In this document: piece after piece, positions 12,612-51,528 of the stretch
Numbering within the stretch: the stretch's first letter is position 1
How the letters are laid out: each line of letters starts with the position of its first letter
IMG/VR virus record: IMGVR_UViG_3300031760_000017
Length of the DNA stretch: 64,000 bases
From: a virus
Reading direction: 5' to 3' (one strand)
Position numbers and translations under genes: made by a program
The notes under the pieces: generated by a model
Database searches by the model: none
Seen by the model: only the letters and a program-made list of their open reading frames with translations
What the model was told of the DNA's origin: nothing

Positions 12612-12757
12612 TACTTTCCTCCAATCGAGATCTCTTTTTACTTTTTGAATTATTTAACAGTTACTAAATTTTCGCGAAAAAAGAAAGAGTTTTTTCTTTC
12701 CACATATATATAAAAATTTCTACTATTAAATTAATTACATTTGACCAAAAAATTGAG

Positions 12758-33778: not shown

Positions 33779-35017
33779 ATGCTTAATAAAAACAATGAAA
33801 GAGAACTTGCTTATGTGGTTATTGTTGATGCAGTAACTCCAATTAAAGGTTATGATAGAGTAGAGCTTGCTCATGTGGGCGGATGGACCGTTGTAGTTGG
33901 AAAAGGCGAGTTCCATGCGGGCGACCCCGCAATTTATTTTGAAATTGATTCTCAGCTTCCTGAGGTAGAGCCATTTACTAATATGGAATTTCTTGCTAAG
34001 AAACATTATAAAATTAAAACACAGAAAATGTGTAAATCTATTTCTCAGGGGCTTCTAATGTCTGCCGCAAATTTTGGATGGAAAAAATCTGCTGAAAATG
34101 CAGGTGACTTTCCATACATCAAGGATAATGAAGGTATTTGTCATTTTACAAATGATGAGTCTCGTTTCCTTACAAAGCAGCTTAATGTAACATACGCCGT
34201 TCCAGAAGATAATGCCCGCAAAGCAAATTCTGTTGATAAATATAAGAAAATGGCACAGCGCAATGGTAAGCTTTTCTCTCATCAGCCGTTTAAATGGCTT
34301 ATGAAAAAAGAGTGGGGAAGAAAACTTCTTTTCACATTCTTTGGTAGCAAAAAGGATAAGACAGGCTGGCCCGCATGGGTAAAAAAGACAGATGAGGAAA
34401 GAATCGAAAATCTTCCATATCTGTTTGAAGATAAGTCTCCTTGGATTGCTACTGAGAAAATTGATGGGACTAGCACAACTTTCACCCTGAAACGCGGAAA
34501 AGGACTCTTTAAGAAAGATGAATTTTATATTTGTTCCCGTAACGTATGTTTCGATAGACCTAATAAAAATTGTTTCTATGAAACAAATGTTTATATTGAA
34601 ATGGCTGAAAAATATAATATTTATAATAAGATGAAGCATCTTCTTGAAACAAAATATAAAGATTGTGAATGGATTACAATTCAGGGTGAGACTTATGGAA
34701 CTGGAATTCAGAAACGTGATTACCATATGACAGAACATAATTTTATGGCTTTTAACCTGATTTCCTCTAAAAATGGAAGAGAAAATTCACTTATTATGAA
34801 AGATATTCTTGAGAAGGAAAATGGTATTCCTTGTGTTCCTATTGTAGCTGACTCTTATACACTTCCGGGCACTCTTGAAGAGCTTCGTGAGTTTGTAGAT
34901 AGTGATACTTCCGTTATTGACGGAGAAATTAGAGAAGGAATTGTATTCCGTTCCACTGACGGTTCTCGTTCTTTTAAATGTGTTTCTCCAACATATCTTA
35001 TGAAATATCATCAGTAA
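33779..35017 (+). CDS. ATP-dependent RNA ligase (Rnl-family nucleotidyltransferase)
   Basis: KxDG adenylation motif (EKIDGTS). 412 aa. Sits in a cassette with the kinase and phosphatase genes. Confidence 0.6.
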   Translation: MLNKNNERELAYVVIVDAVTPIKGYDRVELAHVGGWTVVVGKGEFHAGDPAIYFEIDSQLPEVEPFTNMEFLAKKHYKIKTQKMCKSISQGLLMSAANFGWKKSAENAGDFPYIKDNEGICHFTNDESRFLTKQLNVTYAVPEDNARKANSVDKYKKMAQRNGKLFSHQPFKWLMKKEWGRKLLFTFFGSKKDKTGWPAWVKKTDEERIENLPYLFEDKSPWIATEKIDGTSTTFTLKRGKGLFKKDEFYICSRNVCFDRPNKNCFYETNVYIEMAEKYNIYNKMKHLLETKYKDCEWITIQGETYGTGIQKRDYHMTEHNFMAFNLISSKNGRENSLIMKDILEKENGIPCVPIVADSYTLPGTLEELREFVDSDTSVIDGEIREGIVFRSTDGSRSFKCVSPTYLMKYHQ

Positions 35018-35074
35018 ATTTTAAAGGTGAGATAAAAAATCTCACCTTGTTTTTTTTATTATTTTTTGTTATAA
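35018..35074 (+). terminator. Composite terminator and promoter cassette
   Basis: Hairpin AAGGTGAGAT...ATCTCACCTT. TTGTTT is exactly 17 bp from TGTTATAAT. Confidence 0.6.
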
Positions 35075-35110
35075 TATATATAATGAAAAATAAAGAAAGG
35101 ATATAAAAAT

Positions 35111-35365
35111 ATGACGCTTAAAGAATGGCTTAAAAAAATTGATTTAGTAATAGACGTAAAAATTTGGGGAAAAGATGATGAGATACCTCTCTTTGAAGGC
35201 GCAGCTTTTGATATTCCTTGGACTATTATTGATTTTTCAATAGGCAGAATGGAGAATAGCACAGAAGAACCTATTTATATTTGCACTTATAAAAATAAAA
35301 ATAATGTGGTACTTTCAATAATTGTTATTAATGTGATAGAAAAAGAGGAGGATTTTCCATTTTGA
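35111..35365 (+). CDS. Hypothetical protein, 84 aa
   Basis: ORF with AAAGGATATAAAAAT ahead of the ATG. Confidence 0.4.
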   Translation: MTLKEWLKKIDLVIDVKIWGKDDEIPLFEGAAFDIPWTIIDFSIGRMENSTEEPIYICTYKNKNNVVLSIIVINVIEKEEDFPF

Positions 35366-35646
35366 CAACACAAATTTCAGAAATGTATTGTACTTGCTGT
35401 GGTAAAAAAGGAATATCTATTCCTAGAAAAAATAGTAAATTTAGAAAATCTGGACATTTAAAAAAATTATATTGTATTTATTGCGGAGCTGAAAAAAATC
35501 ATGTTGAAATTCGTCCTATCTATGATGACTATACTTACAAAGATTTCGAACTTGAAATGAAATATAATAATTTTGATTCAGAAGGAAATAGAAAAGAATC
35601 TTATCGAATTTTTAGAGGAAATTTAAAGAAAGCAGGTGTTATATAA
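35362..35646 (+). CDS. Zinc-ribbon protein
   Basis: CxxC...CxxC motif. Probable TTG start after AAAAGAGGAGGA. Confidence 0.4.
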   Translation: MTTQISEMYCTCCGKKGISIPRKNSKFRKSGHLKKLYCIYCGAEKNHVEIRPIYDDYTYKDFELEMKYNNFDSEGNRKESYRIFRGNLKKAGVI

Positions 35647-36146
35647 TGGGTGATTTATATATAATGTGTGGCGTTCCTGGCTCTGGCAAATCAACCTTTC
35701 TTAAAAATAGAGTAAAATCAAATAAAGGTGTTATTATTTCTCGTGATAAAATTAGATTTTCTCTTGTCAAACCAGATGAACCTTATTTTTCAAAAGAAAG
35801 AGAAGTTACAAAAACTCTTTGGGATAAAATTAATAAAGAGTTAGCATCTGGAAATACTGTTTTTGTAGACCAAACTTCTCTTACTAGAAAATCTAGAAAA
35901 TGGCTTCTTGACCATATTATTACAAACAATTGTAACCATATTAATTTAATCTGGATAGATGAAAATCTTAAAACATGTTTAGAAAGAAATGAACAAAGAA
36001 AAGGAACTCGTGGTTATGTTCCTAAAGAATCTATTGTTAATATGTATAATAACTTTGAAGAGCCTTCATTAAATGAAGGATTCTATCGAATCTTTAAATA
36101 CAATAGCACAAATGATGAGATAACTTATAAAGGAGTGATTTTATAA
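35646..36146 (+). CDS. Polynucleotide 5'-kinase (P-loop, Pnk-like)
   Basis: Walker A motif CGVPGSGKST. 166 aa. ATGA overlap with the neighbouring genes. Confidence 0.6.
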   Translation: MGDLYIMCGVPGSGKSTFLKNRVKSNKGVIISRDKIRFSLVKPDEPYFSKEREVTKTLWDKINKELASGNTVFVDQTSLTRKSRKWLLDHIITNNCNHINLIWIDENLKTCLERNEQRKGTRGYVPKESIVNMYNNFEEPSLNEGFYRIFKYNSTNDEITYKGVIL

Positions 36147-36667
36147 TGTCAAATATTTGGCTTATTTCAGATACTCATTTTAATCATAATAAAAATTTTA
36201 TTTGGAAGGCTCGCGGCTTTAATTCAGTAGAAGAAATGAATGAAACCATTATTAAAAATTGGAACGATGTGATTCAACCAGATGATGTTGTATATCATCT
36301 TGGTGATGTTATTATGGGCGAGCTTGATGCGGGCATTCCCCTTATAAAAAGACTTAATGGCAAAATTAAACTAGCAATTGGAAATCATGACACAACAATG
36401 CGCCTTGCCGCATTTAAAGAACTTTTTGATGAAATTAATTTTGGATATAGACTTAAAAAAGGTAAAAAAACCTTTCTACTTACTCATTATCCAACTCTAG
36501 TTGATAACTATGATGACCCAGTAAAAGTATATTCTATACATGGTCATACTCATTCATCAAATGCTTTTTGTGACCATCCTTTTATGTATAATGTCAACTG
36601 TGATGCACATAATTGTAAACCAATTCTTTTTGAAGAGGTAATTGAAGACATATACAGTCATAAATAA
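36146..36667 (+). CDS. Calcineurin-like metallophosphoesterase, the candidate 2',3'-phosphatase of the RNA repair cassette
   Basis: Motifs DTHFNH, GDV and GNHD. Confidence 0.6.
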   Translation: MSNIWLISDTHFNHNKNFIWKARGFNSVEEMNETIIKNWNDVIQPDDVVYHLGDVIMGELDAGIPLIKRLNGKIKLAIGNHDTTMRLAAFKELFDEINFGYRLKKGKKTFLLTHYPTLVDNYDDPVKVYSIHGHTHSSNAFCDHPFMYNVNCDAHNCKPILFEEVIEDIYSHK

Positions 36668-36705
36668 AGCTTGGACAAAATTAAATAAATTATTATTTCA
36701 ATTTT

Positions 36706-36747
36706 TAATATTCTTTAAGAGGAAACTCTTAAAGAATATTTTTTTTA
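36706..36747 (+). terminator. Rho-independent terminator immediately upstream of the holin
   Basis: AATATTCTTTAAGAGG-AAAC-TCTTAAAGAATATT followed by T8. Confidence 0.7.
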
Positions 36748-36763
36748 TGGAGGTTAAAATTAA

Positions 36764-37015
36764 ATGAACCTGAAGGTTAGATTTAGAAATCCAATATTTA
36801 TTGCACAACTTATTTTATCAATTTTAACTCCAATTTTATCTTATGCAGGATTAACGCTCCAAGATTTAACAACTTGGGCTTCTCTTGGTAATCTCTTAAT
36901 CGGAGCACTAAGTAATCCATATGTTCTTGGTTTAATTATTGTTTCACTATGGGGCGCCCTAAATGATCCTACAACAGCAGGTATTACAGATAGTAAGCTA
37001 GCAATGACATACTAG
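36764..37015 (+). CDS. Holin (phi LC3/LL-H-like). It ends in TAG. Read-through would add 6 aa (QKPRKDN) up to TAA 37031-37033
   Basis: 83 aa with two TM segments. MNLKVRFRNPIFIAQLILSIL resembles holins of the LL-H family. GGAGG SD. Confidence 0.6.
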   Translation: MNLKVRFRNPIFIAQLILSILTPILSYAGLTLQDLTTWASLGNLLIGALSNPYVLGLIIVSLWGALNDPTTAGITDSKLAMTY

Positions 37016-37045
37016 AAACCTAGAAAAGATAATTAATTAATAAAA

Positions 37046-37080
37046 GGACAGAGAAATAAAATTCTCTGTCTTTTTATTTT
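37046..37080 (+). terminator. Rho-independent terminator
   Basis: GGACAGAGAA-ATAAAA-TTCTCTGTC followed by a T-run. Confidence 0.7.
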
Positions 37081-37097
37081 TCTAAAGGAGAATAAAA

Positions 37098-39383
37098 ATG
37101 ACATAGAAAGAATTTATTTAGAAAGTAAAAAATCCATGTATAAATGCAACAAATATAATCGGCGGTTATCTTCCCAGCGTATTAATTGGACAAATGTGTT
37201 TATAGACTGGTTACGGAACTGGATATAATTGCGAATTATTAATGCAATGGAATAATTTGCTTGGAATGAAAACTTAGTTATTAAATGACACTTGGAAATC
37301 TAAATATTGGAATGGCAAATCCGCAACTAAAAGAACTCCAGAGTATTATGGTTACCATACAACTATTACAGATTCATTCAGGGTTTATGATAATATTTAG
37401 CAATGTGCATGTGACTATTTACAATTTATGCGCGATGCTAAATATTCTAAAAACGGAAACTATAAATATAGAGATGTTTTAACAATAAAAGATCCAACTC
37501 AACTGATTACTCAAGTATCTAAACGAGGATATGCAACAGATCCAGCTTATATTACATCTGTCATGAGTATTATTAAAAAATATAACTTAACTCAATATGA
37601 TTCAAATGGAGGGAATAAACCTATGACATTAAAATAGGCATTATCAAAACTTGGTGTTAATTTAATTAATAGAATTAGTCAGAATAGAAGCCAAGTTCCT
37701 GCTCATAATGCAAATTCACACCAATATTTTGCTGTTCACTACCTTGGTGTAAATGGTTAGAATCCAGACCTATATGGCGGCGGATATGGTGGACATTTTT
37801 ACGTAAGTAAAGATGGTAAATGCTATCAAGCCGCGGAAGTAACTGATAAACTTTGGCATGTAGGTGCTTCTTCAGGATTCTCTTATATTCATTCTTATGC
37901 AAGAAATAATAATACAATAGGAGTTGAATGCGGAACTTACACAGCTTCTGGAAGAAATAATGATAATGAGACATGGTATTTTACAGAAGCCACTCAAGTA
38001 ACTGCCGCAAAATTAGCAGCAGCTGTACTTACTGTTTATAATTTACCTATGGATCATTTATTAAGACATGGGGATATTACAACTAAAAATTGTCCATCTC
38101 CATTAAAAAGAGACCAGGGTAAAGGTAGCAACTGGACTTGGGATAAATTTAAATCAGAAGTTTCTAAATATATGGCTCAATTAGGAAATGAATCCGCTCC
38201 AACTGTTACTATTCTAAAATTAGGAAGTAATGGAAAATAGGTTAAAGAATTACAAGAAAAATTATTACTTTTAGGATTTGTAGATTGTGCTTATTACAAT
38301 AAAAATAGAAATTTCGCAGATGGTGATTTTGGATAGAATACTTTAAAATCATTAAAATATTTCCAACAAGCAAAAGGATTATAGGTTGATGGTATTTATG
38401 GACCAAAAACCGCAGAAGCATTAGATAAAGCCGTTAAAGAAGCAAAAGCTTCAAAATTTGATGTTACAGTAGATGAATTTTTAAATAATGCAAAAATTAT
38501 TGCAAAAGAAAATAAAGAAAAAGGCTTTAAATATGGTAATGCTTGTTGCTTACCTTCAGTTTATCCTTTTGAAAAAATAACATCTTGTGATAGATTTGTC
38601 GATCAAGTTTTATATAAGAGTGGATTAAAAACTGTTGGTAATCGCGGTTTTACTGATTTATAGGATTGTTTAATTAATCTTAAAGCTCAAAAAATTTATC
38701 GAGAATCTTAGTTACAAAAAGGTGATATTGTATATACAATTGGACATGTATTCATTCTTGGAAACAAAATTTCTAATACTACTTATTAGAGATACGATGC
38801 AGGTTCTGTTGAAAGAATCCAATTAACTGGACCTTATGCTAGCTATAAATCTCAGCCTTTTGTTGAAGAAATTGACCTTTTCACTTTTGCTTATAGATTA
38901 CCTTTTAAAACAAAAGAAGAAAAGAAAGAAAAGACTTCAACATTTTTAAAACTTGGTGATAATAGTGCATCAGTTAAACAAATGCAAGAAAAATTAATTA
39001 AACTTGGATATTTTGTAGGCACAGCTGGTGCGGATGGCGATTTTGGTCAAAACACATTAAAAGCATTAAAATATTTTCAATCTAATCATGGATTAACCGC
39101 AGATGGATATTATGGTCCACTTGCTAAACAAAAATTAGAAAGTATCTATAATAAAATTAAAAATTATGATACACCTACTAAACATGATAATTTAATTAAA
39201 GAGAAAATTTTTACAACAACAGACAATTTAAATTTACGTAAAGGTTCTTCAATAGCACATGAAATTATACTTTAGATTCCAAAAGGAGCAAAAGTAAAGT
39301 GGTATGGTTATTATACCGGATCTTGGTATTATGTAGTTTATAATGGAAATATTGGATATGCATCTTCTCATTATTTAAAATAA
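37098..39383 (+). CDS. Multidomain endolysin, about 761 aa, TAG-recoded with about 17 in-frame TAGs. It has a glucosaminidase-like N-terminus and an amidase_2/PGRP domain. Two PG_binding_1 repeats and a CHAP/NlpC-like region follow. A C-terminal SH3 domain completes it
   Basis: A single frame joins track ORFs 37428.., 38049.. and 38982... Motifs HGDITTKNCP (amidase_2) and ADGDFG.NTLK.LKYFQ (PG_binding_1, two copies). SH3-like C-terminus. Ends in TAA. Confidence 0.7.
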
Positions 39384-39397
39384 TAATAAAACCTTTT

Positions 39398-39437
39398 AAG
39401 AGGGAAATTGCTTTGCAATTTCCCTCTTTTATTTTTT
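39398..39437 (+). terminator. Rho-independent terminator
   Basis: AAGAGGGAAATTGC-TTT-GCAATTTCCCTCTT followed by a T-run. Confidence 0.8.
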
Positions 39438-39490
39438 GAAAAATAAAAATATTTATATTATAATAATATATATTCATATAGGAGGTTTGT

Positions 39491-39994
39491 ATGTTATATA
39501 TTTATATAGATGGGTCCTGCCGTGGCAATGGATCTAAAAATTCTAAAGGCGGTTTTGGAATAGTAATATTTGATGATAACCGTAATTTAATTGACGCTTA
39601 TCAAGAACAGTTTGATAATGTGACAAATAATCAAATGGAATTAAAGGCATTTCTAAAGACATTTGAATTATTAAATACAAAATATAAAAATCAACAAGCA
39701 ACTATTTATTCTGATTCTGCATATTGTGTTAATATCCTTTCTTCTTGGATTCATAAATGGAGTAAAAACAATTGGAAAAATAGTAAAAATGAAACAATTA
39801 AAAATTTAGATATTATTTCATCTTTATATGAATATTATAATATAAATTTTTTTATTAATCAAATTTATATAGTTAAAGTTGATGGTCATAAAGGTGATAT
39901 AGGTAATGAATTAGCTGATGCTCTTGCACAATTTAATAAAGAAAAATTTAGTAATATTATATTACAAAATCATATAAACATTAGTCTTTTGTAA
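39491..39994 (+). CDS. rnhA: Ribonuclease H (RNase HI-like)
   Basis: DGSC...E...D...HKGDIGNELADALA catalytic motifs. Confidence 0.7.
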   Translation: MLYIYIDGSCRGNGSKNSKGGFGIVIFDDNRNLIDAYQEQFDNVTNNQMELKAFLKTFELLNTKYKNQQATIYSDSAYCVNILSSWIHKWSKNNWKNSKNETIKNLDIISSLYEYYNINFFINQIYIVKVDGHKGDIGNELADALAQFNKEKFSNIILQNHINISLL

Positions 39995-40058
39995 AAAAGT
40001 TGTTAAATTTAAAAAAATATTATATAATATAATTATAAAATAAAAAGAGGCAAAATAT

Positions 40059-40826
40059 ATGAAATATATATTAAAAAATGGTTAGTAGATAGAGTCCATT
40101 GATATTGGAAAGGCTAATATCAAAATAGGGCAAAGAAATAATCGACTTACTATTTGTGATAGAGCGCCTAATACAAAATCAAAAAAAGCACGTATAATTT
40201 GTTTATGTGATTGTGGACAATACACAGTTATAAATCATCAAGATTTTAAAAATGGACAAGTTAAAAGTTGTGGATGCTATGCAAAAGAAATACATGCTGA
40301 AATAGGAAGAAAAACTGCTATAGATTTCACTCAATCATAGTACAATAATAATCCATTTTATGAATATATTGAACCTACAGATGTTAGATTTAATTGGAGT
40401 AAACAAGTAGTATGGAAGGTTAAATGTAGAAAATGTAATAAAGAATATTTAGCAATTCCTAAAGAATTAATTTCTATAAATAATAATAAGCGTATGAATC
40501 CTTGTAATTGTTGGAAAACTTATAGTATTGGAGTTCAACGTATTATTGCAATATTAGAAAAAAATAATATTTCTTATGAATTAGAAAAAAAATTTGATAC
40601 ATGTATTTCACCAAAAGGAAATTGTTTACCTTTTGATTTCTATCTTCCTGATTATAAGATTTTAATAGAATATGATGGACAACAACATTTTAATATAGCA
40701 TTTGGTCAAAATGAAAATAAATTGATTCAACAAAAAAAATATGATAAAATAAAAAATGAATGGTGTAAAAATAATAATATTCATTTAATTAGGATACCTT
40801 ATTATCAAAAAGAAATTACAATTTAG
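40059..40826 (+). CDS. Putative homing endonuclease-like protein, with a Zn-ribbon and a PD-(D/E)XK-like EYDG region. TAG-recoded with 3 TAGs
   Basis: Continuous frame from the ATG at 40059 through track ORF 40494... Consecutive TAG TAG at codons 9-10. Confidence 0.35.
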
Positions 40827-40848
40827 AATTTAATAGGAGAAAAAATTA

Positions 40849-42562
40849 ATGGGTAAATTATATACAGAAGACTCGATAGAAAGCTTATCTCCTCTCGAAT
40901 TTACACGACTTAGACCTGGTGTATATTGTGGAGACACTAATTACTCTACTCAATTATTAATTGAAATATTTTCAAATGCAGTAGATGAATACCGTAATGG
41001 ATTTGGAAATAGAATTGATGTAACTATTCTCCCTGACATGATTTCGGTTAGAGATTATGGGCAAGGATTTATTCCAAATTCATATCGGGACGATGGAAAA
41101 ACAATTCTTGAAGCGGCATTTAGTGTTTTAAATACATCTGGAAAATATCGAGATGATGGAACCTATGAAGGAACTTCTTTAGGTTCTTTTGGTATCGGTT
41201 CAAAAATTACGACTTTCCTTTCTCATTGGTTAAGAGTTAAAACTATGAGAGATTCAGAGTGGGAAGAAATATATTTTAAAGAGGGCGTATTTCAATACCG
41301 AACAAGCGGTGCTGGAGGAGTTACTGGAACTCTTGTTGAATGGCAACCTTCAGAAGAATTTTTTACTCATCCAGAAGTAGAAATTAAAAAGGTCGTAGAT
41401 TTATTTAAAACTATTACATGTCTTTGCCCTGGTCTAACAATTAATCTATATGACCATGGAAAACATACTGTTTTTGTTTCTGATAATGGAATTAATGATT
41501 TAATTGATGAAGCTGTAAAAGACACAGAGCTTATTAATAATCGTTTTTCAATGAACTTTTCAGAAGGCAAAAATAAATTTGATATGGTTCTTACTTATGC
41601 AGGCAATTATTCTTTAACAATGGTCCCATATGTAAACACTGGACTTACAGAATCTGGACCTCATATTACTCAAATCAAAACCGTTATCACAAGAGAATTT
41701 AATAAATTCTTTAAAGAAAAAAAATGGTTAAAAGATAAAGATTCTAACTTAACTGGTGATGATATTCAAGAGGGTATGTATGTAATATTTAATCTTACTG
41801 CTCCCAATGTTGGTTATGACGCTCAAGTCAAGAGTAGAATCACAAAGATTGACATGAGTCCTTTTACTTCTGCATTAAGTACAAATTTAAACATTTGGCT
41901 TAATAATAATGAAAAAGAAATAAAAATTATTTTTGAAAAAGCAACAGCCGCCCGTAAGGCAAGAGATGCCGCAAAGAAAGCAAGAGATAAAGCAAGAGAG
42001 CAAAATAAAAAGAAACAGAAAGCTCTTAAATTCGATAGTAAACTTGCAGATTGTAATTCAAAAGATAGAAGTAAATGTGAAATTTATATTACTGAGGGAG
42101 ATAGTGCATCTGGTAATTTAAAGCTTGCTCGTGATAATGAAACACAGGCGGTTATGCCAGTTAGAGGTAAAATTTTAAATACTCAAAAAGCTACTTTTGC
42201 ACAGATTCAAAAAAATGCAGAAATTATGACAATGTGTGATGCCTTCTTTGGACCTGGAGACTGGTCTATTGACCCTAAGACTCTTAAAGTAACTTATAGT
42301 CAAGTAAGATATGGCAAAATAATCATTATGTCAGATGCTGATTGTGATGGAGCGCATATTAAAAATCTTTTTTACACCTTTATATGGAATTTCTGTCCTG
42401 ATCTAGTTCAAAAAGGGTATGTTTATGCTGGGGTTCCCCCGCTTTATAAAATTACTCTTCCTGCAAATAAAGGATATAAATATTTAAAAAATGATGAAGC
42501 ATTAAATGAATTTAAAAGCAAGAATAAAGATAAAAAATATCAGATCGGACGCATGAAAGGGT
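40849..42562 (+). CDS. gyrB: DNA topoisomerase II / gyrase B-like subunit, exon 1
   Basis: GHKL ATPase, TOPRIM motifs (EGDSA, PVRGKILN, IMSDADCDGAHI). Exon 1 ends ...RMKG plus one nt (U). Confidence 0.7.
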
Positions 42563-43595
42563 ACGAGTTAGTCTGGCCCTTAGCTACTTTTCCGCGGATC
42601 GGCGGGGTTGCCTAAAATAGGCAGCTAACGAGGTAGTCTTCTATTTAAAATTTTGGACATTTTAGGATAATCTGAAATGTGAAATTTTTATAATATATAG
42701 AAGATAATCTCGTGGGAAAAAATTACGATATTATCTCCAAAAAAATTAAAGGAGATAAAATAATGATAGGAATTTATAAAATTACAAATTTACTAAATGG
42801 TCATAGTTATATTGGATTATCTACTCATATTGAAGATAGATGGGAATATCATAAAAATCCATATAACTGGAATAGAGAAAAGAATAAATCTTTATACAAA
42901 GCAATTTTAAAATATGGTATCGAAAATTTTTCTTTTGAAATACTTGAATAGTGCTTACCAGAACAGTTAAGTGAAAAAGAAAAATACTATATTGAAAAAT
43001 ATAATACATATCATGCTGGTTATAATATGACTGCCGGCGGTGAAGATAATCAAGGTGAAAGTCATCCAAGACACAAATTAACAAAAGAAGATGTGATAGA
43101 TATTAGAACTAGATATGACAATCTTGAAAGAAAAAAAGATGTGTATTAGTTATATAAAGATAGAATTGGAGAAAGTGGTTTTTCTAAAATTTGGAAGGGC
43201 AACACTTGGACTTCTATAATGATGGAAGTTTACACTCCTTAGAATAAAAAATATCATTTACATGATACGGCAAATAAAGGCTCTCAAAATGGAAGAGCTA
43301 GATTAACTGAATAGGATGTAAGAGCTATTCGATTAAGAAGAAAGAACGGCGAAAAATTATCTGATGTATATGCAAATTATAAACATCTTTTAACCAAAGG
43401 GTCTTTTACGAATATTTGGTCGTATCAAAATTGGAAAAATATCGTAGTTTAAACCTGTATCGACTATCCCCTTTGTCGGGGAGTACATCTCTTATTGATA
43501 CAGAGATGGAAACAGTAGCGCCCTATGACTACAGTAAATGCGTTAGTACGAGGGCAAGAAATAGTCAGTGCCATTGGTAACAATGGATTAACACG
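42563..43595 (+). mobile_element. Group I intron in the gyrB-like gene. It carries a GIY-YIG homing endonuclease ORF
   Basis: The 5' exon end AAGGGU pairs with the internal guide sequence GCCCUU (42576-42581). The pairing has a G.U wobble at the splice site. The intron ends in omega-G at 43595. Splicing restores KGLGEM...NPNNRIIKQITVEDVAAADKLFNDLMGN, a canonical GyrB C-terminus. The intron ends are GC-rich and structured. Confidence 0.65.
42712..43452 (+). CDS. GIY-YIG homing endonuclease inside the intron, TAG-recoded. The start is at 42712 or 42763
   Basis: GIYKITNLLNGHSYIGLS motif. The frame continues through 4 TAGs to TAA 43450-43452. Confidence 0.6.
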
Positions 43596-49146: not shown

Positions 49147-50091
49147 ATGGTTGTATTAACAATAATAGATATTATTATTTTTTGTGTTGCGATAGTATTA
49201 ATTCATAAAGCTGATTTAAAAAAAGTTAATATCGCTAAATAGCAATAGAAGAAACAACAGTTAATCAATTAGATTAAATAGTTATCTGATACATACAATG
49301 ATTATAATTTAAAAATACAAAACATCCTTCAAGAAACTCAAATTGTTAAAGCTAGAGCTGAAGAAACAACAGCTAATTATATTGCTAATCAAAAACAAAT
49401 AGCACTCGATTATATTAATAATCAATAGCAATTAGCAGAACAAAAAATTAAAGAAATAAATGCTAATACTTAGCAAGAAATTGCGGCAATTCATGAAGAT
49501 CTTCAAAATATTAGGTGTTCTGCCGCACAATAGAAAGAACAAATTCAAAACGAGCTTAATAAACTAAAAGCCTCTTTGAGTGCGGGCGTAGAAGCCCGCC
49601 TTCGCGAACAATAGAAAAAAGATAAAATTAATTTTTATAAACTTTCTATTAGTGATGCGGATTTAGCTGATGTTAAAATGCTAGAAAATTTAAAAGCATC
49701 TTTCCATAAACCTGTTGTTTTAAGTAAACTTATTTGGACTCAATATTTTCAAAAGCAAATGACTGAATTGTGTGATAGAGTACTTGGTAAAAAAACTGTT
49801 TGCGGCATTTATAAAATTACCAATTTATTAACAGAACAATGTTATATTGGTCAAAGTGTTAATATTAGTGATAGATGGAAACAACATTGTAAATGCGGCC
49901 TTGGTATAGAAGCATCAGCTACCAATATTTTATATAATTCAATGCAAAAAGATAAAGTTTGGAATTTTACTTTTGAATTATTATAGGAGTGCCCGCGTAA
50001 TTTACTAAATGAAAAGGAAGCTTTTTGGATTGATACTTATAGTAGTAATATATATGGATTAAATACTATGAAAGGAATTAATAAAAAATGA
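49147..50091 (+). CDS. TM plus Q-rich coiled-coil protein fused to, or followed by, a GIY-YIG nuclease domain. TAG-recoded with about 9 TAGs
   Basis: The frame is continuous from the ATG at 49147 through track ORF 49678... Motif GIYKITNLLTEQCYIGQS. The TAGs sit in Q-rich contexts (Q*Q, NNQ*QLAEQ, AAQ*KEQIQ). Confidence 0.45.
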
Positions 50092-50942
50092 AATTTTAGA
50101 ATACAGATGTCTGGGGATTTTAGCATGCAATCAGGGGTATGAGAAATCCTAAAAATAGCTGGAATAAAAGTGATAGTCTTTTTGAAATTGCTTATATCGA
50201 ACAAATGGAGGCTGATTGGGAAGTCGCTTCAAGTTATGTCGATGCAAATGAAAAATATGATTTTTAGAGTGAATATGATAAATATTATGAAGCACAAGAA
50301 AAATATGCGGATTGGCTTCTTAAAAATGGTGTTTTAAAAGATCAAAATGAATGTTTTAGTTATGCTTTTATTGGACCAAATGATATGAAACTGGCTCAAA
50401 CTCTTATTAAAGCTGGTCCTGAACACCGAAAATTTCTACGCCAAATCTTTGTATCTGTTGATATTACTGCACCACTTTATTGGTGGAAATAGATGGATCA
50501 ATATAAAATTGGGACAGTCACAGATAGCACATCAACTATGCATAAACTAACGAGTAAACCTATTACTCTTGAAAGTTTTGAAATTGATGATTTTAATCCA
50601 GAAATTGTATATTACGAAATTCTTGATGCTCAAAATGATATTGGTATGCTTGCGGATTTTATAATTGAACAACTTGAATTTCTTCGTCAAAAATATCTTG
50701 AAACAAAAGACAAAAGATATTGGAAAGAATTAGTACGATGGTTGCCTGAAAGCTGGTTACAAAAAAGAACATGGACTGCAAATTATGAAGTTCTTTATTC
50801 TATAGTTTTACAAAGAGGGCATCATAAATTAGAAACAGAATGGGATAAAGGTTTTATACATTGGTGCGCCTCATTGCCATATGCAAAGGATTTGATTTTT
50901 TATGGAGAAGAACGAGAAAAAATATATAATTTATATGCATAA
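50088..50942 (+). CDS. Hypothetical protein, 284 aa, 3 TAGs
   Basis: The frame is continuous with track ORF 50493... ATGA overlap with the upstream gene. Confidence 0.4.
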
Positions 50943-51528
50943 AAATAAAATTAATAATAAAATGTATATAGGACAAACTTGCCAAAATCCACCATCAAAA
51001 AGATGGAAACCTTGTAATTATAAAGGATCTTCAAGATTTTATAATGCTATTTTAAAATATGGTTGGATTAATTTTGAACATATTATTTTAAAAAAATGTT
51101 CTTCACTATAGGAAGCAAATTAGTAGGAAAGAAATTTTATTAGTCAATATCAAACTACAAATCCAGAATTTGGATATAATATTATGCCGGGTGGCTCTAA
51201 TAAAGAAATTCCTTTATAGGTTCGAGAAAAAATGTCTAAAAATCATAGAGATGTTAAGGGGAAAAATAATTATTTTTACGGAAAACATTTTAAAGGTAAA
51301 GAACATCCATTTTATGGACAACATCATTCGGATGAAACTAAACAAAAATTAAAAAAATCTTTATTAAATAAAAATGGAAAAGCAGTAAAATGCATTGAAG
51401 AAAATAAAAATTTTCCTTCCGCAAGAGAAGCTGCAAGATATTATAATATGAAAACTTCTAGTCACATTTCTGCATGTTGCAATGGCAAAAGACAAACTGC
51501 TAATAAATTTCATTGGGAATATATTTAA
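50902..51528 (+). CDS. GIY-YIG homing endonuclease with NUMOD-like C-terminal modules, TAG-recoded
   Basis: KMYIGQT...ILKYG GIY-YIG region. The frame joins track ORFs 50902.. and 51232.. through 4 TAGs. Confidence 0.5.

What the first reader, a model, noticed from the sequence alone, without database searches (positions are those of the whole stretch)
36706..39437. Lysis cassette gated by recoding: a TAG-free holin but a 17-TAG endolysin, plus a TAG-terminated holin with a possible 6-aa read-through tail
The holin (36764..37015) is TAG-free but ends in TAG. Read-through to the next TAA would append QKPRKDN, a charged C-terminal tail of the kind that tunes holin timing. The 761-aa multidomain endolysin is among the most TAG-dense genes in the window, with 17 in-frame TAGs. 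It therefore cannot be made until amber suppression is active. This is the configuration proposed for recoding-based control of lysis timing. A strong terminator sits immediately upstream of the holin, which implies that transcription into the cassette is also regulated.
Basis: partly seen in the sequence, partly recalled or inferred. Interest (0 to 1): 0.75.

Follow-up and report, generated by a model that had tools for sequence, protein, structure and literature searches.

The report
Phage lysis genes written with TAG=glutamate
This is the cell-bursting gene pair (holin plus endolysin) of a large gut/rumen phage that reads the stop codon TAG as an amino acid; the surprise is that TAG here most likely means glutamate rather than the glutamine assumed for such phages, so that even the catalytic glutamate of the lysin is written as a "stop" codon.

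Summary
The cassette is real: a Phage_holin_1 holin (36764-37036) and a single 761-aa multidomain endolysin (37098-39383), each preceded by a strong terminator hairpin, inside a block of TAG-free nucleic-acid-metabolism genes. The lysin has 14 in-frame TAGs, not 17. The holin does not end at TAG: its TAG is codon 84 inside the family's native conserved tail (homologues are 88-92 aa), so it is a sense codon, not an optional read-through. Recoding-linked control of lysis genes is an already published hypothesis (Borges et al.) and remains inference here. The pattern does hold in 15 of 16 related loci, even where the lysin is of a different type. The new result is that TAG behaves as glutamate, not glutamine (code 15). 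Lysin TAG sites align to Glu in distant homologues (mean 0.43 Glu vs 0.06 Gln). Codon 36 is the GH73 catalytic Glu (111/111 homologues). A likelihood test over 695 TAG sites favours Glu, and RecJ shows the same. E-type relatives carry a CUA-tRNA class different from the tRNA-Gln-like one in Q-type relatives. The suppressor tRNA lies outside the window, about 3.6 kb upstream in the closest relative. No phage TAG-to-Glu report was found.

The parts
396..1395 (+). Last four tRNAs (Gln-TTG, Gly, Arg, Cys) of a larger phage tRNA array. The CUA (amber-reading) tRNA of that array lies outside the window, about 3.6 kb upstream of base 1 in the closest relative.
   Evidence: window tRNAs. L096 has 24 tRNAs, with tRNA(CTA) at L096:4904-4977; L096 position = window position + 8510. 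All six other related large-contig loci scanned (L129, L103, L104, L105, L098, L099) also have a CTA tRNA.
36671..36698 (+). Conserved 23-28 nt motif (TTGGACAAAATTAAATAAATTATTATTT; family consensus about GGACAAAATTAAATAATTATATT) a few to about 25 nt upstream of the pre-holin hairpin (8 nt in the window). Candidate phage-specific promoter or regulator site; function unknown.
   Evidence: conserved in about 17 diverged relatives while flanking intergenic DNA varies. (weight-matrix score 26.2; weaker intergenic matches at 3172(+) and 12748(-)).
36707..36748 (+). Terminator-like hairpin T1 (15-bp stem, 4-nt loop) plus a run of T. It ends 23 nt before the holin start codon, with no room for a promoter.
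   Evidence: dG -17.3 kcal/mol, z -5.2. Structure conserved with compensatory stem changes in L003, L004, L013, L053 and others.
36764..37036 (+). Holin, 90 codons plus TAA. Phage_holin_1 (phi LC3 type), two hydrophobic segments (about 10-30 and 45-66), hydrophilic C-terminal region.
   Evidence: PF04531, E 6.8e-24, profile matched 1-82/82 across the TAG. (holin PHROGs). (homologue lengths and tails). (hydropathy).
37013..37015 (+). The holin's only TAG (codon 84), at the start of the conserved basic tail (x-KPRKDN). It is a sense codon. If read as stop, an 83-aa tail-less holin results.
   Evidence: TAG-84 occurs in 5 distinct holin lineages. Q15 and Q33 are never TAG in 72 unique sequences. 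Other family members have D/E (37 of 84 loci), T, Q, N or K at this position.
37039..37081 (+). Terminator-like hairpin T2 plus T-run between holin and lysin. It ends about 17-27 nt before the lysin start, with no room for a promoter.
   Evidence: dG -20.2, z -7.6. A hairpin at the same place with a different sequence in L003 and L004.
37098..39383 (+). Endolysin, 761 codons plus TAA, with 14 in-frame TAG.
37104..37106 (+). First lysin TAG (codon 3). If TAG is read as stop, only a dipeptide is made. Glu in 84/111 distant homologues.
37164..37589 (+). GH73 N-acetylglucosaminidase domain (aa 23-164).
   Evidence: PF01832, E 1.1e-21. (FlgJ, Auto and other PDB matches).
37203..37205 (+). TAG at codon 36, which is the catalytic general-acid Glu of GH73 (motif L-x-TGYG against FlgJ AAL-E-TGWG).
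   Evidence: aligns to the Glu of FlgJ; PDB 3k3t carries Ala at this position. (Glu in 111/111 homologues). (GAA/GAG in L013/L014). (TAG at codon 36 also in the L049 lysin).
37722..38102 (+). Amidase_2 (N-acetylmuramoyl-L-alanine amidase) domain, aa 209-335.
   Evidence: PF01510, E 1.2e-12.
38211..38393 (+). First PG_binding_1 repeat (about aa 372-432).
38430..38933 (+). Unannotated middle domain (about aa 445-612). Predicted divergent NlpC/P60/CHAP-like cysteine peptidase fold, with an invariant Cys and Asp and a near-invariant His in the alignment.
   Evidence: no Pfam or PDB sequence hit. (conserved C53, H106, D123 of the domain alignment). (model pLDDT 94.2, pTM 0.91). (best folds MepS, Acd24020, CHAP of LysK/LysGH15, CwlO; weak, E about 1e-3, TM 0.40-0.47).
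38964..39125 (+). Second PG_binding_1 repeat (aa 623-676).
39222..39380 (+). SH3_3 cell-wall-binding domain (aa 709-761).
   Evidence: PF08239, E 4e-11.
39398..39437 (+). Terminator-like hairpin T3 (14-bp stem) plus T-run after the lysin.
   Evidence: dG -20.4, z -6.2.
39436..39464 (+). Best sigma-70-like promoter match of the region (TTGAAA-17-TATAAT, 11/12), directly after T3 and upstream of RNase H (39491-39994). It marks the restart of the TAG-free replication block.
   Evidence: An equivalent TTGACA...TATAAT follows the holin terminator in L004.

Best explanation
The region is the holin-endolysin lysis cassette of a roughly 140-kb stop-codon-recoded siphophage-like genome (2883-aa tape-measure-like gene, large tRNA array) that infects Gram-positive Bacillota, probably rumen or gut Clostridia. 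TAG is a sense codon, read by a phage-encoded tRNA with anticodon CUA. In this clade it most likely specifies glutamate, not the glutamine of 'code 15'.

The 761-aa lysin has a GH73 glucosaminidase, an Amidase_2, a probable NlpC/P60-like peptidase, two PG_binding_1 repeats and an SH3_3 domain. It needs 14 such decodings, the first at codon 3 and one at its GH73 catalytic Glu (codon 36). A cell that reads TAG as stop therefore makes no lysin at all. The two membrane helices of the holin are TAG-free. Its single TAG (codon 84) opens the family's conserved basic tail, so without suppression an 83-aa tail-less holin would be made.

Both genes are immediately preceded by strong intrinsic-terminator hairpins with no room for a promoter. 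Transcription must therefore read through terminators from upstream. A strong promoter restarts the TAG-free replication genes after the lysin.

Lysis proteins thus depend on two phage-controlled conditions: terminator read-through and the presence of charged tRNA(CUA).

Shown: ORF integrity, domains, TAG as a sense codon, Glu-like behaviour of TAG sites, a CUA tRNA in close relatives, hairpins and their conservation, and recurrence of the pattern in relatives.

Inferred: that the host reads TAG as stop, that suppressor activity rises during infection, that this is used as a timing or licensing device, and that the tRNA is charged by the host GluRS.
For: One protein.

Native holin tail.

TAG-free flanks against the TAG-bearing lysin: (Fisher p = 3.8e-7). 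The same layout is found in 15 of 16 related loci with at least 5 lysin architectures. The first TAG tends to be early (mean relative position 0.128 against 0.220 expected; nominal P 0.0014, not phylogeny-corrected).

TAG = Glu:
- Codon 36 is the GH73 catalytic Glu and is Glu in 111/111 homologues.
- Lysin TAG sites in 112 homologues under 60% identity have mean Glu 0.43 and Gln 0.06. True-Gln sites give 0.11/0.40 and true-Glu sites 0.30/0.05.
- Against the standard-code homologue L014, TAG sites go to E5/Q0 while true Gln sites go to Q12/E0.
- TAG occurs in 34 of 351 Glu-conserved columns against 8 of 193 Gln-conserved columns.
- Log-likelihood over 695 TAG occurrences is E +106 against Q -117.
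- RecJ TAG columns are 38% Glu against 1% for true-Gln columns.
- E-type and Q-type loci carry different CUA-tRNA classes.

CUA tRNA in the closest relative's array.

Hairpins. Their conservation with different sequence.

Gram-positive host range of the holin family.
Against: There are no expression or proteomic data, so temporal gating is untested.

The suppressor tRNA is not in the window. Its presence in this genome is inferred from a mosaic relative (98% identity in the neighbouring ORF but only 37-55% in two tail genes).

A cytoplasmic endolysin is normally harmless before the holin fires (established knowledge, not tested here), so blocking the lysin alone would not set lysis time. The holin body does not depend on the code.

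The lysin's TAG usage (34% of TAG+CAA+CAG) is like that of the tail genes and is not specially enriched.

Evidence for Gln rather than Glu:
- Among 93-97% identical lysins, TAG swaps with CAA/CAG at 6 sites (7 codon exchanges) and with GAA at 1.
- The two PG_binding repeats read GDFG-TAG-NT and GDFG-Q-NT.
- In pairs of 60% identity or more, Gln has the highest per-site propensity to face TAG (1.9% against 0.66% for Glu).
- The lysin-region locus L255 scored Q-type.
- Global similarity of the CUA tRNA to phage tRNA-Glu against tRNA-Gln does not discriminate.
These points could reflect transition bias (TAG to CAG is one transition; TAG to GAG needs a transversion) or mixed Glu/Gln decoding.
Confidence: 0.65

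Rival explanations
1. This is a code-15 (TAG = Gln) phage. The holin genuinely terminates at TAG, and occasional read-through appends an extra 6-7 aa charged tail that tunes timing. The lysin is held back by its TAGs until amber suppression starts.
For: The holin body is TAG-free and TAG is followed 7 codons later by TAA. The lysin is TAG-rich in a TAG-free neighbourhood. Close-range TAG to CAA/CAG swaps occur. The model matches the published hypothesis.
Against: The tail is the native family C-terminus: 119 of the 120 best homologues are 88 aa or longer, and only one 83-aa entry exists, itself a TAG case called with code 11. Codon 84 is CAA in a related TAG-recoded phage (L004). In a genome that decodes 14 TAGs in the next gene, TAG cannot be an efficient terminator. 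TAG sites match Glu, not Gln. The TAG count is wrong.
Confidence: 0.08
2. Passive tolerance. TAG codons have no regulatory role. They accumulate by AT-biased mutation in any gene that is expressed only when the suppressor tRNA is already abundant (late genes, homing endonucleases). Early genes must stay TAG-free. The lysin's TAGs then merely mark it as late, and timing is set entirely by transcription (terminators or antitermination) and by the holin.
For: The lysin's TAG share (0.34) equals that of the tail genes (0.28-0.43) and is not enriched. TAG positions turn over quickly: 12/14, 7/14 and 3/14 are retained at increasing divergence. Retention of holin TAG-84 is not significant on its own (p about 0.09). 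Strong terminators already offer a transcriptional control.
Against: The lysin sits inside an otherwise TAG-free block in the same orientation, and remains TAG-bearing after replacement by unrelated lysin types. The first TAG tends to be early in the ORF (weak). TAG sits at the catalytic Glu in at least two lineages. None of this is decisive, and the two views differ in cause and effect, which sequence alone cannot separate.
Confidence: 0.35
3. TAG is Gln as in code 15, and the window's lysin simply carries an inactivated (E36Q) glucosaminidase domain, tolerated because the amidase and peptidase-like domains do the work.
For: Close-range TAG to CAA/CAG exchanges. The GDFG-x-NT repeat. Gln propensity in near pairs. 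Multidomain lysins can carry silent domains (general knowledge). The related Phassvirus paper reports a Gln call by tRNAscan-SE for its Sup-tRNA.
Against: It would require simultaneous E-to-Q changes at several highly conserved Glu positions (codons 3, 36, 60, 221, 564), zero Gln at any of the lysin's TAG sites in the standard-code homologue L014, the same bias in tail genes and RecJ, and TAG-36 in more than one lineage. The CUA tRNA has a strong 1-72 pair and A73, unlike the tRNA-Gln-like suppressors of the Q-type relatives.
Confidence: 0.12
4. Ambiguous decoding. TAG is read as a mixture of Glu and Gln. This could arise if Glu-tRNA(CUA) made by a non-discriminating GluRS is partly amidated by GatCAB, or if two suppressor tRNAs are present. 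TAG would then settle at sites that tolerate either residue.
For: TAG occurs in both Glu-conserved and Gln-conserved columns far more often than true cross-substitution (107 TAG against 73 Gln in Glu-dominated columns; 29 TAG against 30 Glu in Gln-dominated columns). Signals are mixed within one genome (L096 E-type, L255 Q-type). phAss-1 has three Sup-CTA genes.
Against: Part of the two-sided signal comes from pooling E-type and Q-type genomes. Only one CUA tRNA is seen per E-type locus. A catalytic Glu written as TAG argues for mainly Glu.
Confidence: 0.12
5. The 'lysin' is a decayed pseudogene or several small genes, and the TAGs are real stops.
For: Under table 11 the region breaks into short ORFs.
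Against: There is no TAA or TGA in 761 codons (P = 2.6e-22). Domain models span the TAGs. Full-length orthologues exist with different TAG positions. The whole genome shows the same recoding (for example a 2883-codon ORF with 71 TAGs).
Confidence: 0.01

Closest known systems
Stop-codon-recoded gut phages and the recoding-regulates-lysis hypothesis (Borges et al., bioRxiv 10.1101/2021.08.26.457843)
   Same: In-frame TAG in structural and lysis genes and in homing endonucleases. Replication genes in standard code. A phage-encoded suppressor tRNA. The idea that lysis proteins cannot be made before the code change.
   Different: Those authors report only TAG-to-Gln and TGA-to-Trp, whereas here TAG sites behave as Glu. 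Here the lysis pair is an isolated TAG island inside an early-type block and is bracketed by terminators. The recombinase here is TAG-rich, whereas their integrases avoid TAG.
'Phassvirus' group (phAss-1, BK046881, BK025033; PMC10607447)
   Same: Siphophage-type genomes of about 133-136 kb from gut. Tape measure of about 3150 aa. Large tRNA sets with tRNA-Sup(CTA). TAG in about 28% of ORFs. 'Phage holin' is listed among ORFs with a suppressor TAG in two of three genomes. Clostridia hosts are proposed.
   Different: No close similarity was found between the window and any record in the phage collection searched, so membership is not shown. That paper assigns TAG = Gln.
Genetic code 15 (TAG = Gln), validated by metaproteomics in crAss-like phages (PMC9523058)
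   Same: TAG is reassigned from stop to a polar amino acid in a phage whose early genes avoid it.
   Different: The amino acid inferred here is Glu. The hosts are Gram-positive Bacillota rather than Bacteroidota. The suppressor tRNA lacks the weak 1-72 pair and G73 seen in the Q-type relatives.
Ciliate nuclear codes with UAG (or UAR) = Glu (e.g. PMC10553269, PMC11687900; peritrich code, own knowledge)
   Same: The same codon-to-amino-acid reassignment.
   Different: These are eukaryotic nuclear genomes with a permanent organism-wide code. Here it would be a virus-borne code used in a host that presumably reads TAG as stop.
Lambda late-gene control (pR'-tR'-S R Rz with Q antitermination) and dual-start holin/antiholin pairs (own knowledge; Wang, Smith and Young 2000, cited via PMC6145125)
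   Same: A terminator lies immediately upstream of the holin, so the lysis genes need read-through. The holin C-terminal basic domain is regarded as a clock-tuning element. Two holin isoforms from one gene is an established principle.
   Different: No antiterminator or qut-like site has been identified here. Two isoforms would arise at the C-terminus by stop versus sense decoding, not by alternative starts. There is no dual-start motif in this holin (a single Met at the N-terminus). This is resemblance only and was not tested.

Membership tests
Phage_holin_1 (PF04531, phi LC3-type holins) | Match to the family profile above the curated cut-off over its full length | tested here: met
   84.7 bits against a cut-off of 22, profile positions 1-82/82 matched to residues 1-87, that is, across the TAG.
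Phage_holin_1 (PF04531, phi LC3-type holins) | Small membrane protein with hydrophobic helices and a charged hydrophilic C-terminus, encoded next to an endolysin | tested here: met
   (two hydrophobic maxima, hydrophilic last 24 residues). (conserved basic tail in cultured Firmicute phages). The lysin starts 62 nt downstream.
Phage_holin_1 (PF04531, phi LC3-type holins) | Hole formation or lysis triggering | not testable with these tools
   Needs expression or complementation assays.
Canonical holin-endolysin cassette of Gram-positive phages | Peptidoglycan hydrolase with catalytic and cell-wall-binding domains | tested here: met
   (GH73, Amidase_2, PG_binding_1 x2, SH3_3). (probable NlpC/P60-like third domain).
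Canonical holin-endolysin cassette of Gram-positive phages | Endolysin without a secretion signal (holin-dependent export) | tested here: inconclusive
   No signal-peptide predictor was available. By inspection the N-terminus runs straight into the GH73 fold, since residues 19-36 align with the first helix of FlgJ-type enzymes.
Stop-codon-recoded phage with recoding-linked late/lysis genes (Borges et al. model) | In-frame TAG in genes whose homology continues across the TAG | tested here: met
Stop-codon-recoded phage with recoding-linked late/lysis genes (Borges et al. model) | Early and replication genes TAG-free; structural and lysis genes TAG-bearing | tested here: met
   Exceptions are RecJ, RuvC and a recombinase, which carry TAG.
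Stop-codon-recoded phage with recoding-linked late/lysis genes (Borges et al. model) | Phage-encoded suppressor tRNA (anticodon CUA) | tested here: inconclusive
   Absent from the 64-kb window. Present about 3.6 kb upstream of the window start in the closest relative and in all six other related large-contig loci scanned.
Stop-codon-recoded phage with recoding-linked late/lysis genes (Borges et al. model) | Decoding of TAG changes during infection and delays lysis proteins | not testable with these tools
   Needs time-resolved proteomics or ribosome profiling in a cultured host.
Genetic code 15 (TAG = glutamine) | TAG positions correspond to Gln in homologues that do not use TAG | tested here: not met
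   TAG sites match the Glu profile (for example lysin mean Glu 0.43 against Gln 0.06, and the catalytic Glu at codon 36). Caveat: close-range swaps with CAA/CAG.
Genetic code 15 (TAG = glutamine) | Suppressor tRNA with tRNA-Gln identity features (weak or unpaired 1-72, G73; own knowledge) | tested here: not met
   E-type loci have C1-G72 or G1-C72 and A/C73. The Q-type relatives do have U1.U72 or U1-A72 with G73. No isotype classifier was available, and global similarity was uninformative.
'Phassvirus' group | Nucleotide or protein similarity and synteny with phAss-1, BK046881 or BK025033 | tested here: inconclusive
   No close hit in the phage collection. It is not known whether those three records are in that collection. 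General features (size, giant tape measure, tRNA array, TAG recoding) agree.

The most novel reading that the evidence does not exclude
A clade of roughly 130-145-kb rumen and gut Bacillota phages uses a genetic code in which UAG means glutamate. The code is implemented by a distinctive phage tRNA(CUA), with a strong 1-72 pair and a long D-loop, presumably charged by the host GluRS and not amidated. Sister lineages of the same phage family use UAG = Gln with tRNA-Gln-like suppressors. In this code the endolysin's catalytic glutamate is itself written as UAG, so the code switch directly licenses lytic activity. The holin's single conserved UAG at the start of its basic tail could also yield a tail-less isoform while suppression is low.
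Probability: 0.6. Interest if true: 0.85.

Novelty: new variant of a known kind. Interest (0 to 1): 0.68.

Why it matters
Phage stop-codon recoding is currently described as TAG-to-Gln or TGA-to-Trp only, and gene callers translate TAG as Q (table 15). If TAG is Glu in this clade, three things follow.

First, a third kind of phage code exists, and within one phage family the same codon has been captured by two different amino acids. That makes how code changes arise directly testable, because sister E-type and Q-type genomes with distinct suppressor tRNAs are available.

Second, proteins of these phages that gene callers translated with table 15 would carry E-to-Q errors in public databases, including at catalytic residues. 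This matters for annotation, structure prediction and endolysin engineering. A table-15 version of this lysin would have a dead glucosaminidase domain.

Third, it offers a concrete mechanism for hosts that lack GlnRS, as many Bacillota do (own knowledge).

For lysis biology, the cassette shows lysis genes under two stacked phage-controlled conditions, terminator read-through and suppressor-dependent translation. It is a cleaner test bed for the recoding-controls-lysis hypothesis than the crAss examples, because the lysis pair is an isolated TAG island among TAG-free genes.

Tried and rejected
- Nucleotide search of the cassette against cultured and GenBank phages found only a chance 88-nt hit. 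GyrA and holin protein searches gave no close relative.
- The lysin found no relative in the bacterial genome collection.
- An Rfam scan of 34500-40500 gave only sub-threshold chance hits, so no known riboswitch or RNA element is present.
- The conserved motif TTGGACAAAA as a simple string is not over-represented in the window (9 matches against 11.7 expected). Weight-matrix matches at 3172 and 12748 are borderline against shuffles. Its hexamer spacing does not fit sigma-70 (by inspection), so I do not call it a promoter.
- The promoter-like match inside the holin tail (37004-37033) was judged chance: 49 sites found against 43 expected, and it is followed at once by a terminator.
- Special selection on holin TAG-84 is not established. 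Retention across three divergence levels has p about 0.09 against the lysin baseline. TAG-84 falls in two tree clusters, but the tree rests on only 83 residues. Only 2 or more independent gains can be counted.
- The test for an early first TAG is nominally significant but not corrected for relatedness.
- Global pairwise identity of the CUA tRNA to phage tRNA-Glu or tRNA-Gln does not discriminate; all classes score about 0.7.
- My initial conclusion that TAG = Gln was revised after the catalytic-residue and conserved-column tests.
- Sequence searches of the lysin's middle domain against Pfam and the PDB found nothing. Only the fold search gave a weak lead.

Full report
**1. What is there**

The window has 30% GC and is recoded throughout. 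With TAG as sense, long ORFs appear, for example 2883 codons with 71 TAGs and 1563 codons with 26.

The flagged region contains a 90-codon holin (36764-37036) and a 761-codon endolysin (37098-39383, TAA stop) on the + strand. The lysin has 14 in-frame TAGs, not 17. The chance of 761 codons without TAA or TGA in this composition is 2.6e-22.

Pfam models span the TAGs: Glucosaminidase (aa 23-164), Amidase_2 (209-335), PG_binding_1 twice, and SH3_3 (709-761). PHROGs call it an endolysin.

The unannotated residues around 445-612 match nothing by sequence. They fold with high confidence (pLDDT 94.2), and the best, though weak, structural matches are all NlpC/P60 or CHAP peptidoglycan peptidases. 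The domain alignment has an invariant Cys and Asp and a near-invariant His.

Orthologues at 67-97% identity are full-length with different TAG positions. A 48%-identical standard-code homologue (L014) has no TAG at all.

**2. The holin does not end at TAG**

The holin is Phage_holin_1 (84.7 bits against a cut-off of 22), and the profile aligns through residue 87, past the TAG.

Of the 120 best database homologues, 119 are 88 aa or longer (all but six of them 88-92 aa) and end ...AMTY-[D/E/Q/N]-KP[KR]K.... The only 83-aa entry is another TAG case called with table 11. Cultured standard-code phages of Bacillus, Enterococcus, Streptococcus, Listeria and Staphylococcus align through the tail. A related TAG-recoded 138-kb phage (L004) writes codon 84 as CAA.

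In six relatives that share TAG-84 (holin identity 77-99%), the six codons after it and the TAA are kept with synonymous or conservative changes. The DNA just beyond the TAA diverges with indels.

So TAG (37013-37015) is sense codon 84, and the tail is native, not an appended extension. Read as stop, it would give an 83-aa product lacking the basic tail.

Within 72 unique holin sequences the invariant Q15 is never TAG, and neither is Q33 in the 51 sequences that keep Gln there. TAG occurs only at codon 84 (5 distinct lineages) and at codon 43 (2 sequences). This placement is suggestive. However, retention of TAG-84 is not significant against the lysin's TAG turnover (12/14, 7/14 and 3/14 retained; p about 0.09).

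**3. Context**

PHROG annotation gives the following layout.
- A tRNA array ends at 1395.
- TAG-rich tail and tape-measure genes occupy 3833-27263.
- A + strand block runs from 27464 to 63115 and contains a NinI-like phosphatase, RNA ligase, polynucleotide kinase and phosphoesterase. Then come the holin and lysin, followed by RNase H, GyrB, GyrA, NAD-ligase, DnaB, primase and a Dda-like helicase.
- In that block only the lysin, four homing endonucleases, RecJ and one unknown gene carry several TAGs.

The nine flanking genes have 0 TAG and 64 CAA/CAG, against 14 and 27 in the lysin (Fisher p = 3.8e-7). By density the lysin ranks 7th of 41 genes, similar to the tail genes.

In 15 of 16 related loci the order is RNA ligase-PNK-phosphoesterase (TAG-free), then a holin (0-2 TAG), then a TAG-bearing lysin (2-14 TAG), then RNase H-GyrB (nearly TAG-free). 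This holds although the lysins belong to at least five architectures.

The first TAG tends to lie early (mean relative position 0.128 against 0.220 expected). The test is not corrected for relatedness.

**4. Transcription signals**

Three strong hairpins followed by T-runs bracket the genes:
- T1, 36707-36748 (dG -17.3, z -5.2);
- T2, 37039-37081 (dG -20.2, z -7.6);
- T3, 39398-39437 (dG -20.4, z -6.2).

T1 ends 23 nt before the holin ATG and T2 ends about 17-27 nt before the lysin ATG. Each gap is filled by a Shine-Dalgarno sequence, so there is no room for a promoter. The hairpins are conserved in position while the stems differ, with compensatory changes, in L003, L004, L013, L053 and others.

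A conserved motif of about 23 nt lies just upstream of T1 (8 nt in the window, up to about 25 nt in relatives) in nearly all relatives. Its function is unknown.

The best sigma-70-like site of the region (11/12) follows T3 and precedes RNase H.

My inference is that the lysis genes are reached only by terminator read-through, which resembles lambda late control. This was not tested.

**5. The suppressor tRNA**

None is in the window. The closest relative has 98% identity in ORF 1491-3014 and identical spacing of the last four tRNAs. It carries a 24-tRNA array with a CUA-anticodon tRNA that maps about 3.6 kb upstream of window base 1. All six other related large-contig loci scanned have one too.

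**6. What TAG encodes**

I first accepted Gln, because closely related lysins swap TAG with CAA/CAG at six sites and with GAA at one.

Codon 36 changed that view. It lies in GQMCL-TAG-TGYG, which aligns with the catalytic Glu of GH73 enzymes. FlgJ has AAL-E-TGWG, and PDB 3k3t carries Ala at that position.

Further tests followed.

(a) Forty-eight protein clusters were built from all fetched loci, with TAG masked. In columns where at least 90% of non-TAG residues agree, TAG occurs in 34 of 351 Glu columns (59 occurrences), 8 of 193 Gln columns (10 occurrences), and almost nowhere else.

(b) A Codetta-style log-likelihood over 695 TAG occurrences gives E +106 and Q -117. With one vote per column it gives E -12 and Q -120. 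For the window's 34 scorable sites it gives E +2.4 and Q -3.3.

(c) The loci split. Close relatives of the window are E-type (E minus Q of +20 to +81). More distant members of the family are Q-type (-8 to -28). So the test can recover Gln where it applies.

(d) The split matches the suppressor tRNAs exactly. E-type loci have CUA tRNAs with C1-G72 or G1-C72, A/C73 and a long D-loop. Q-type loci have U1.U72 or U1-A72 with G73.

(e) Against the standard-code homologue L014, the window lysin's TAG sites align to E5, K2, D2, A2, S, N, T and no Q. True Gln sites give Q 12/25 and E 0. True Glu sites give E 7/24 and Q 1.

(f) Against 112 database homologues under 60% identity, TAG sites average Glu 0.43 and Gln 0.06. 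Codon 36 is E in 111/111, codon 3 in 84/111, codon 60 in 90/112 and codon 221 in 87/112. True Glu sites average 0.30/0.05 and true Gln sites 0.11/0.40.

(g) RecJ, 20 kb away, behaves the same way. Its TAG columns are 38% Glu against 1% for true Gln columns. The many Q residues in those columns may be code-15 translations of TAG in recoded relatives; their DNA was not checked.

The contrary evidence is the close-range swaps, the GDFG-x-NT repeat, the near-pair propensity and the Q-type score of locus L255. It can be explained by transition bias, since TAG to CAG is one transition while TAG to GAG needs a transversion. It could also reflect some mixed decoding.

I put TAG = mainly Glu at about 0.75. 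The holin tail would then read E-KPRKDN. That fits the family, where position 84 is D or E in 37 of 84 loci.

**7. Literature**

Borges et al. proposed that recoded stops in lysis genes and homing endonucleases delay their translation, and they state that only TAG-to-Gln and TGA-to-Trp were observed. The Phassvirus paper describes similar TAG-recoded phages of about 135 kb, lists the holin among TAG-bearing ORFs, and assigns Gln. Three searches found no report of TAG = Glu in phages. UAG = Glu appears only for ciliate nuclear codes.

**8. Mechanism and verdict**

The anatomy is shown. The lysin and the complete holin can be made only when tRNA(CUA) is active, and both genes lie behind terminators.

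That this is used as a timer is inferred, and it competes with the passive view that TAG simply accumulates in late genes. Because a cytoplasmic lysin is normally harmless before the holin fires (established knowledge, not tested here) and the holin body is independent of the code, recoding cannot be the sole clock here.

The holin family occurs only in Bacillota genomes, mainly rumen and gut Clostridia and Bacilli. This fits a two-component lysis system.

The locus nevertheless yields strong evidence for a new variant: a phage code with TAG = glutamate, with a catalytic residue of the lysin written in it.

Noticed in passing
L096-L175 (tRNA arrays upstream of homologues of window ORF 1491-3014): Two classes of CUA-anticodon tRNAs track two kinds of TAG usage within one phage family. 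One class has a strong 1-72 pair, A/C73 and a long D-loop, and occurs in genomes whose TAG sites look like Glu. The other has U1.U72 or U1-A72 with G73, and occurs in genomes whose TAG sites look like Gln.
   Followed up: partly
window 38430-38933 (lysin aa about 445-612): A middle domain with no Pfam or PDB sequence match. The confident model (pLDDT 94) best resembles NlpC/P60/CHAP peptidoglycan peptidases, weakly. An invariant Cys and Asp and a near-invariant His suggest a third catalytic domain.
   Followed up: partly
window 36671-36698; also 3172-3199 (+) and 12721-12748 (-): A conserved motif (about GGACAAAATTAAATAATTATATT) lies upstream of the pre-holin hairpin in nearly all relatives. 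Weaker copies lie in two other intergenic regions facing structural operons, and the one at 12748 is also followed by a small hairpin plus T-run. It may be a phage-specific late promoter or regulator site.
   Followed up: partly
window 7690-8703 (-): A tyrosine recombinase/integrase homologue (phrog_1, E 3e-50) carries 10 in-frame TAGs (half of its TAG+CAA+CAG codons). This is the opposite of the TAG avoidance reported for integrases of recoded temperate phages.
   Followed up: no
window 40059-40856, 42763-43452, 49147-50091, 50902-51528: Four homing-endonuclease genes (HNH and GIY-YIG types) with 4-9 TAGs each are interspersed among TAG-free replication genes. The HNH gene overlaps the start of gyrB by 8 nt. 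The same pattern has been described for TGA-recoded Agate phages.
   Followed up: no
window 33779-36667 and 1491-3014: [quoted passage not shown] A 507-aa RNA-binding protein (phrog_850) lies directly after the tRNA array. All are TAG-free. A link to protecting the phage tRNAs is possible.
   Followed up: no
L010 7989-8675 (IMGVR_UViG_3300021256_000064): An extra 228-aa ORF between holin and lysin is a partial duplicate of the lysin's PG_binding_1 plus middle domain.
   Followed up: partly
L004-L008 10001-10893; L027 4222-4740: Some related 134-138-kb phages have no lysin after the holin (RNase H follows directly), or only an 81-aa remnant. In L027/L028 the holin ends ...GK-TAG-TAA, a TAG immediately backed up by TAA. 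Their lysin must be elsewhere.
   Followed up: no
L103 6561-6635; L104 8425-8702: ARAGORN calls a tRNA with anticodon TTA (a possible ochre-reading tRNA) in one relative's array and a tmRNA-like gene (tag ADNYTYQMAA) in another.
   Followed up: no
L131, L136, L142, L145, L167, L174 (CUA tRNAs): Several tRNA-Gln-like CUA tRNAs of Q-type relatives carry an extra insertion of about 17-20 nt after the anticodon stem. It may be an intron or a long variable arm.
   Followed up: no
window 3833-7672 against L096/L129: The closest relative is 95-98% identical in the lysis region and ORF 1491-3014 but only 37-55% identical in two TAG-rich tail or baseplate-like genes. This indicates module exchange, probably of host-range genes.
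   Followed up: no
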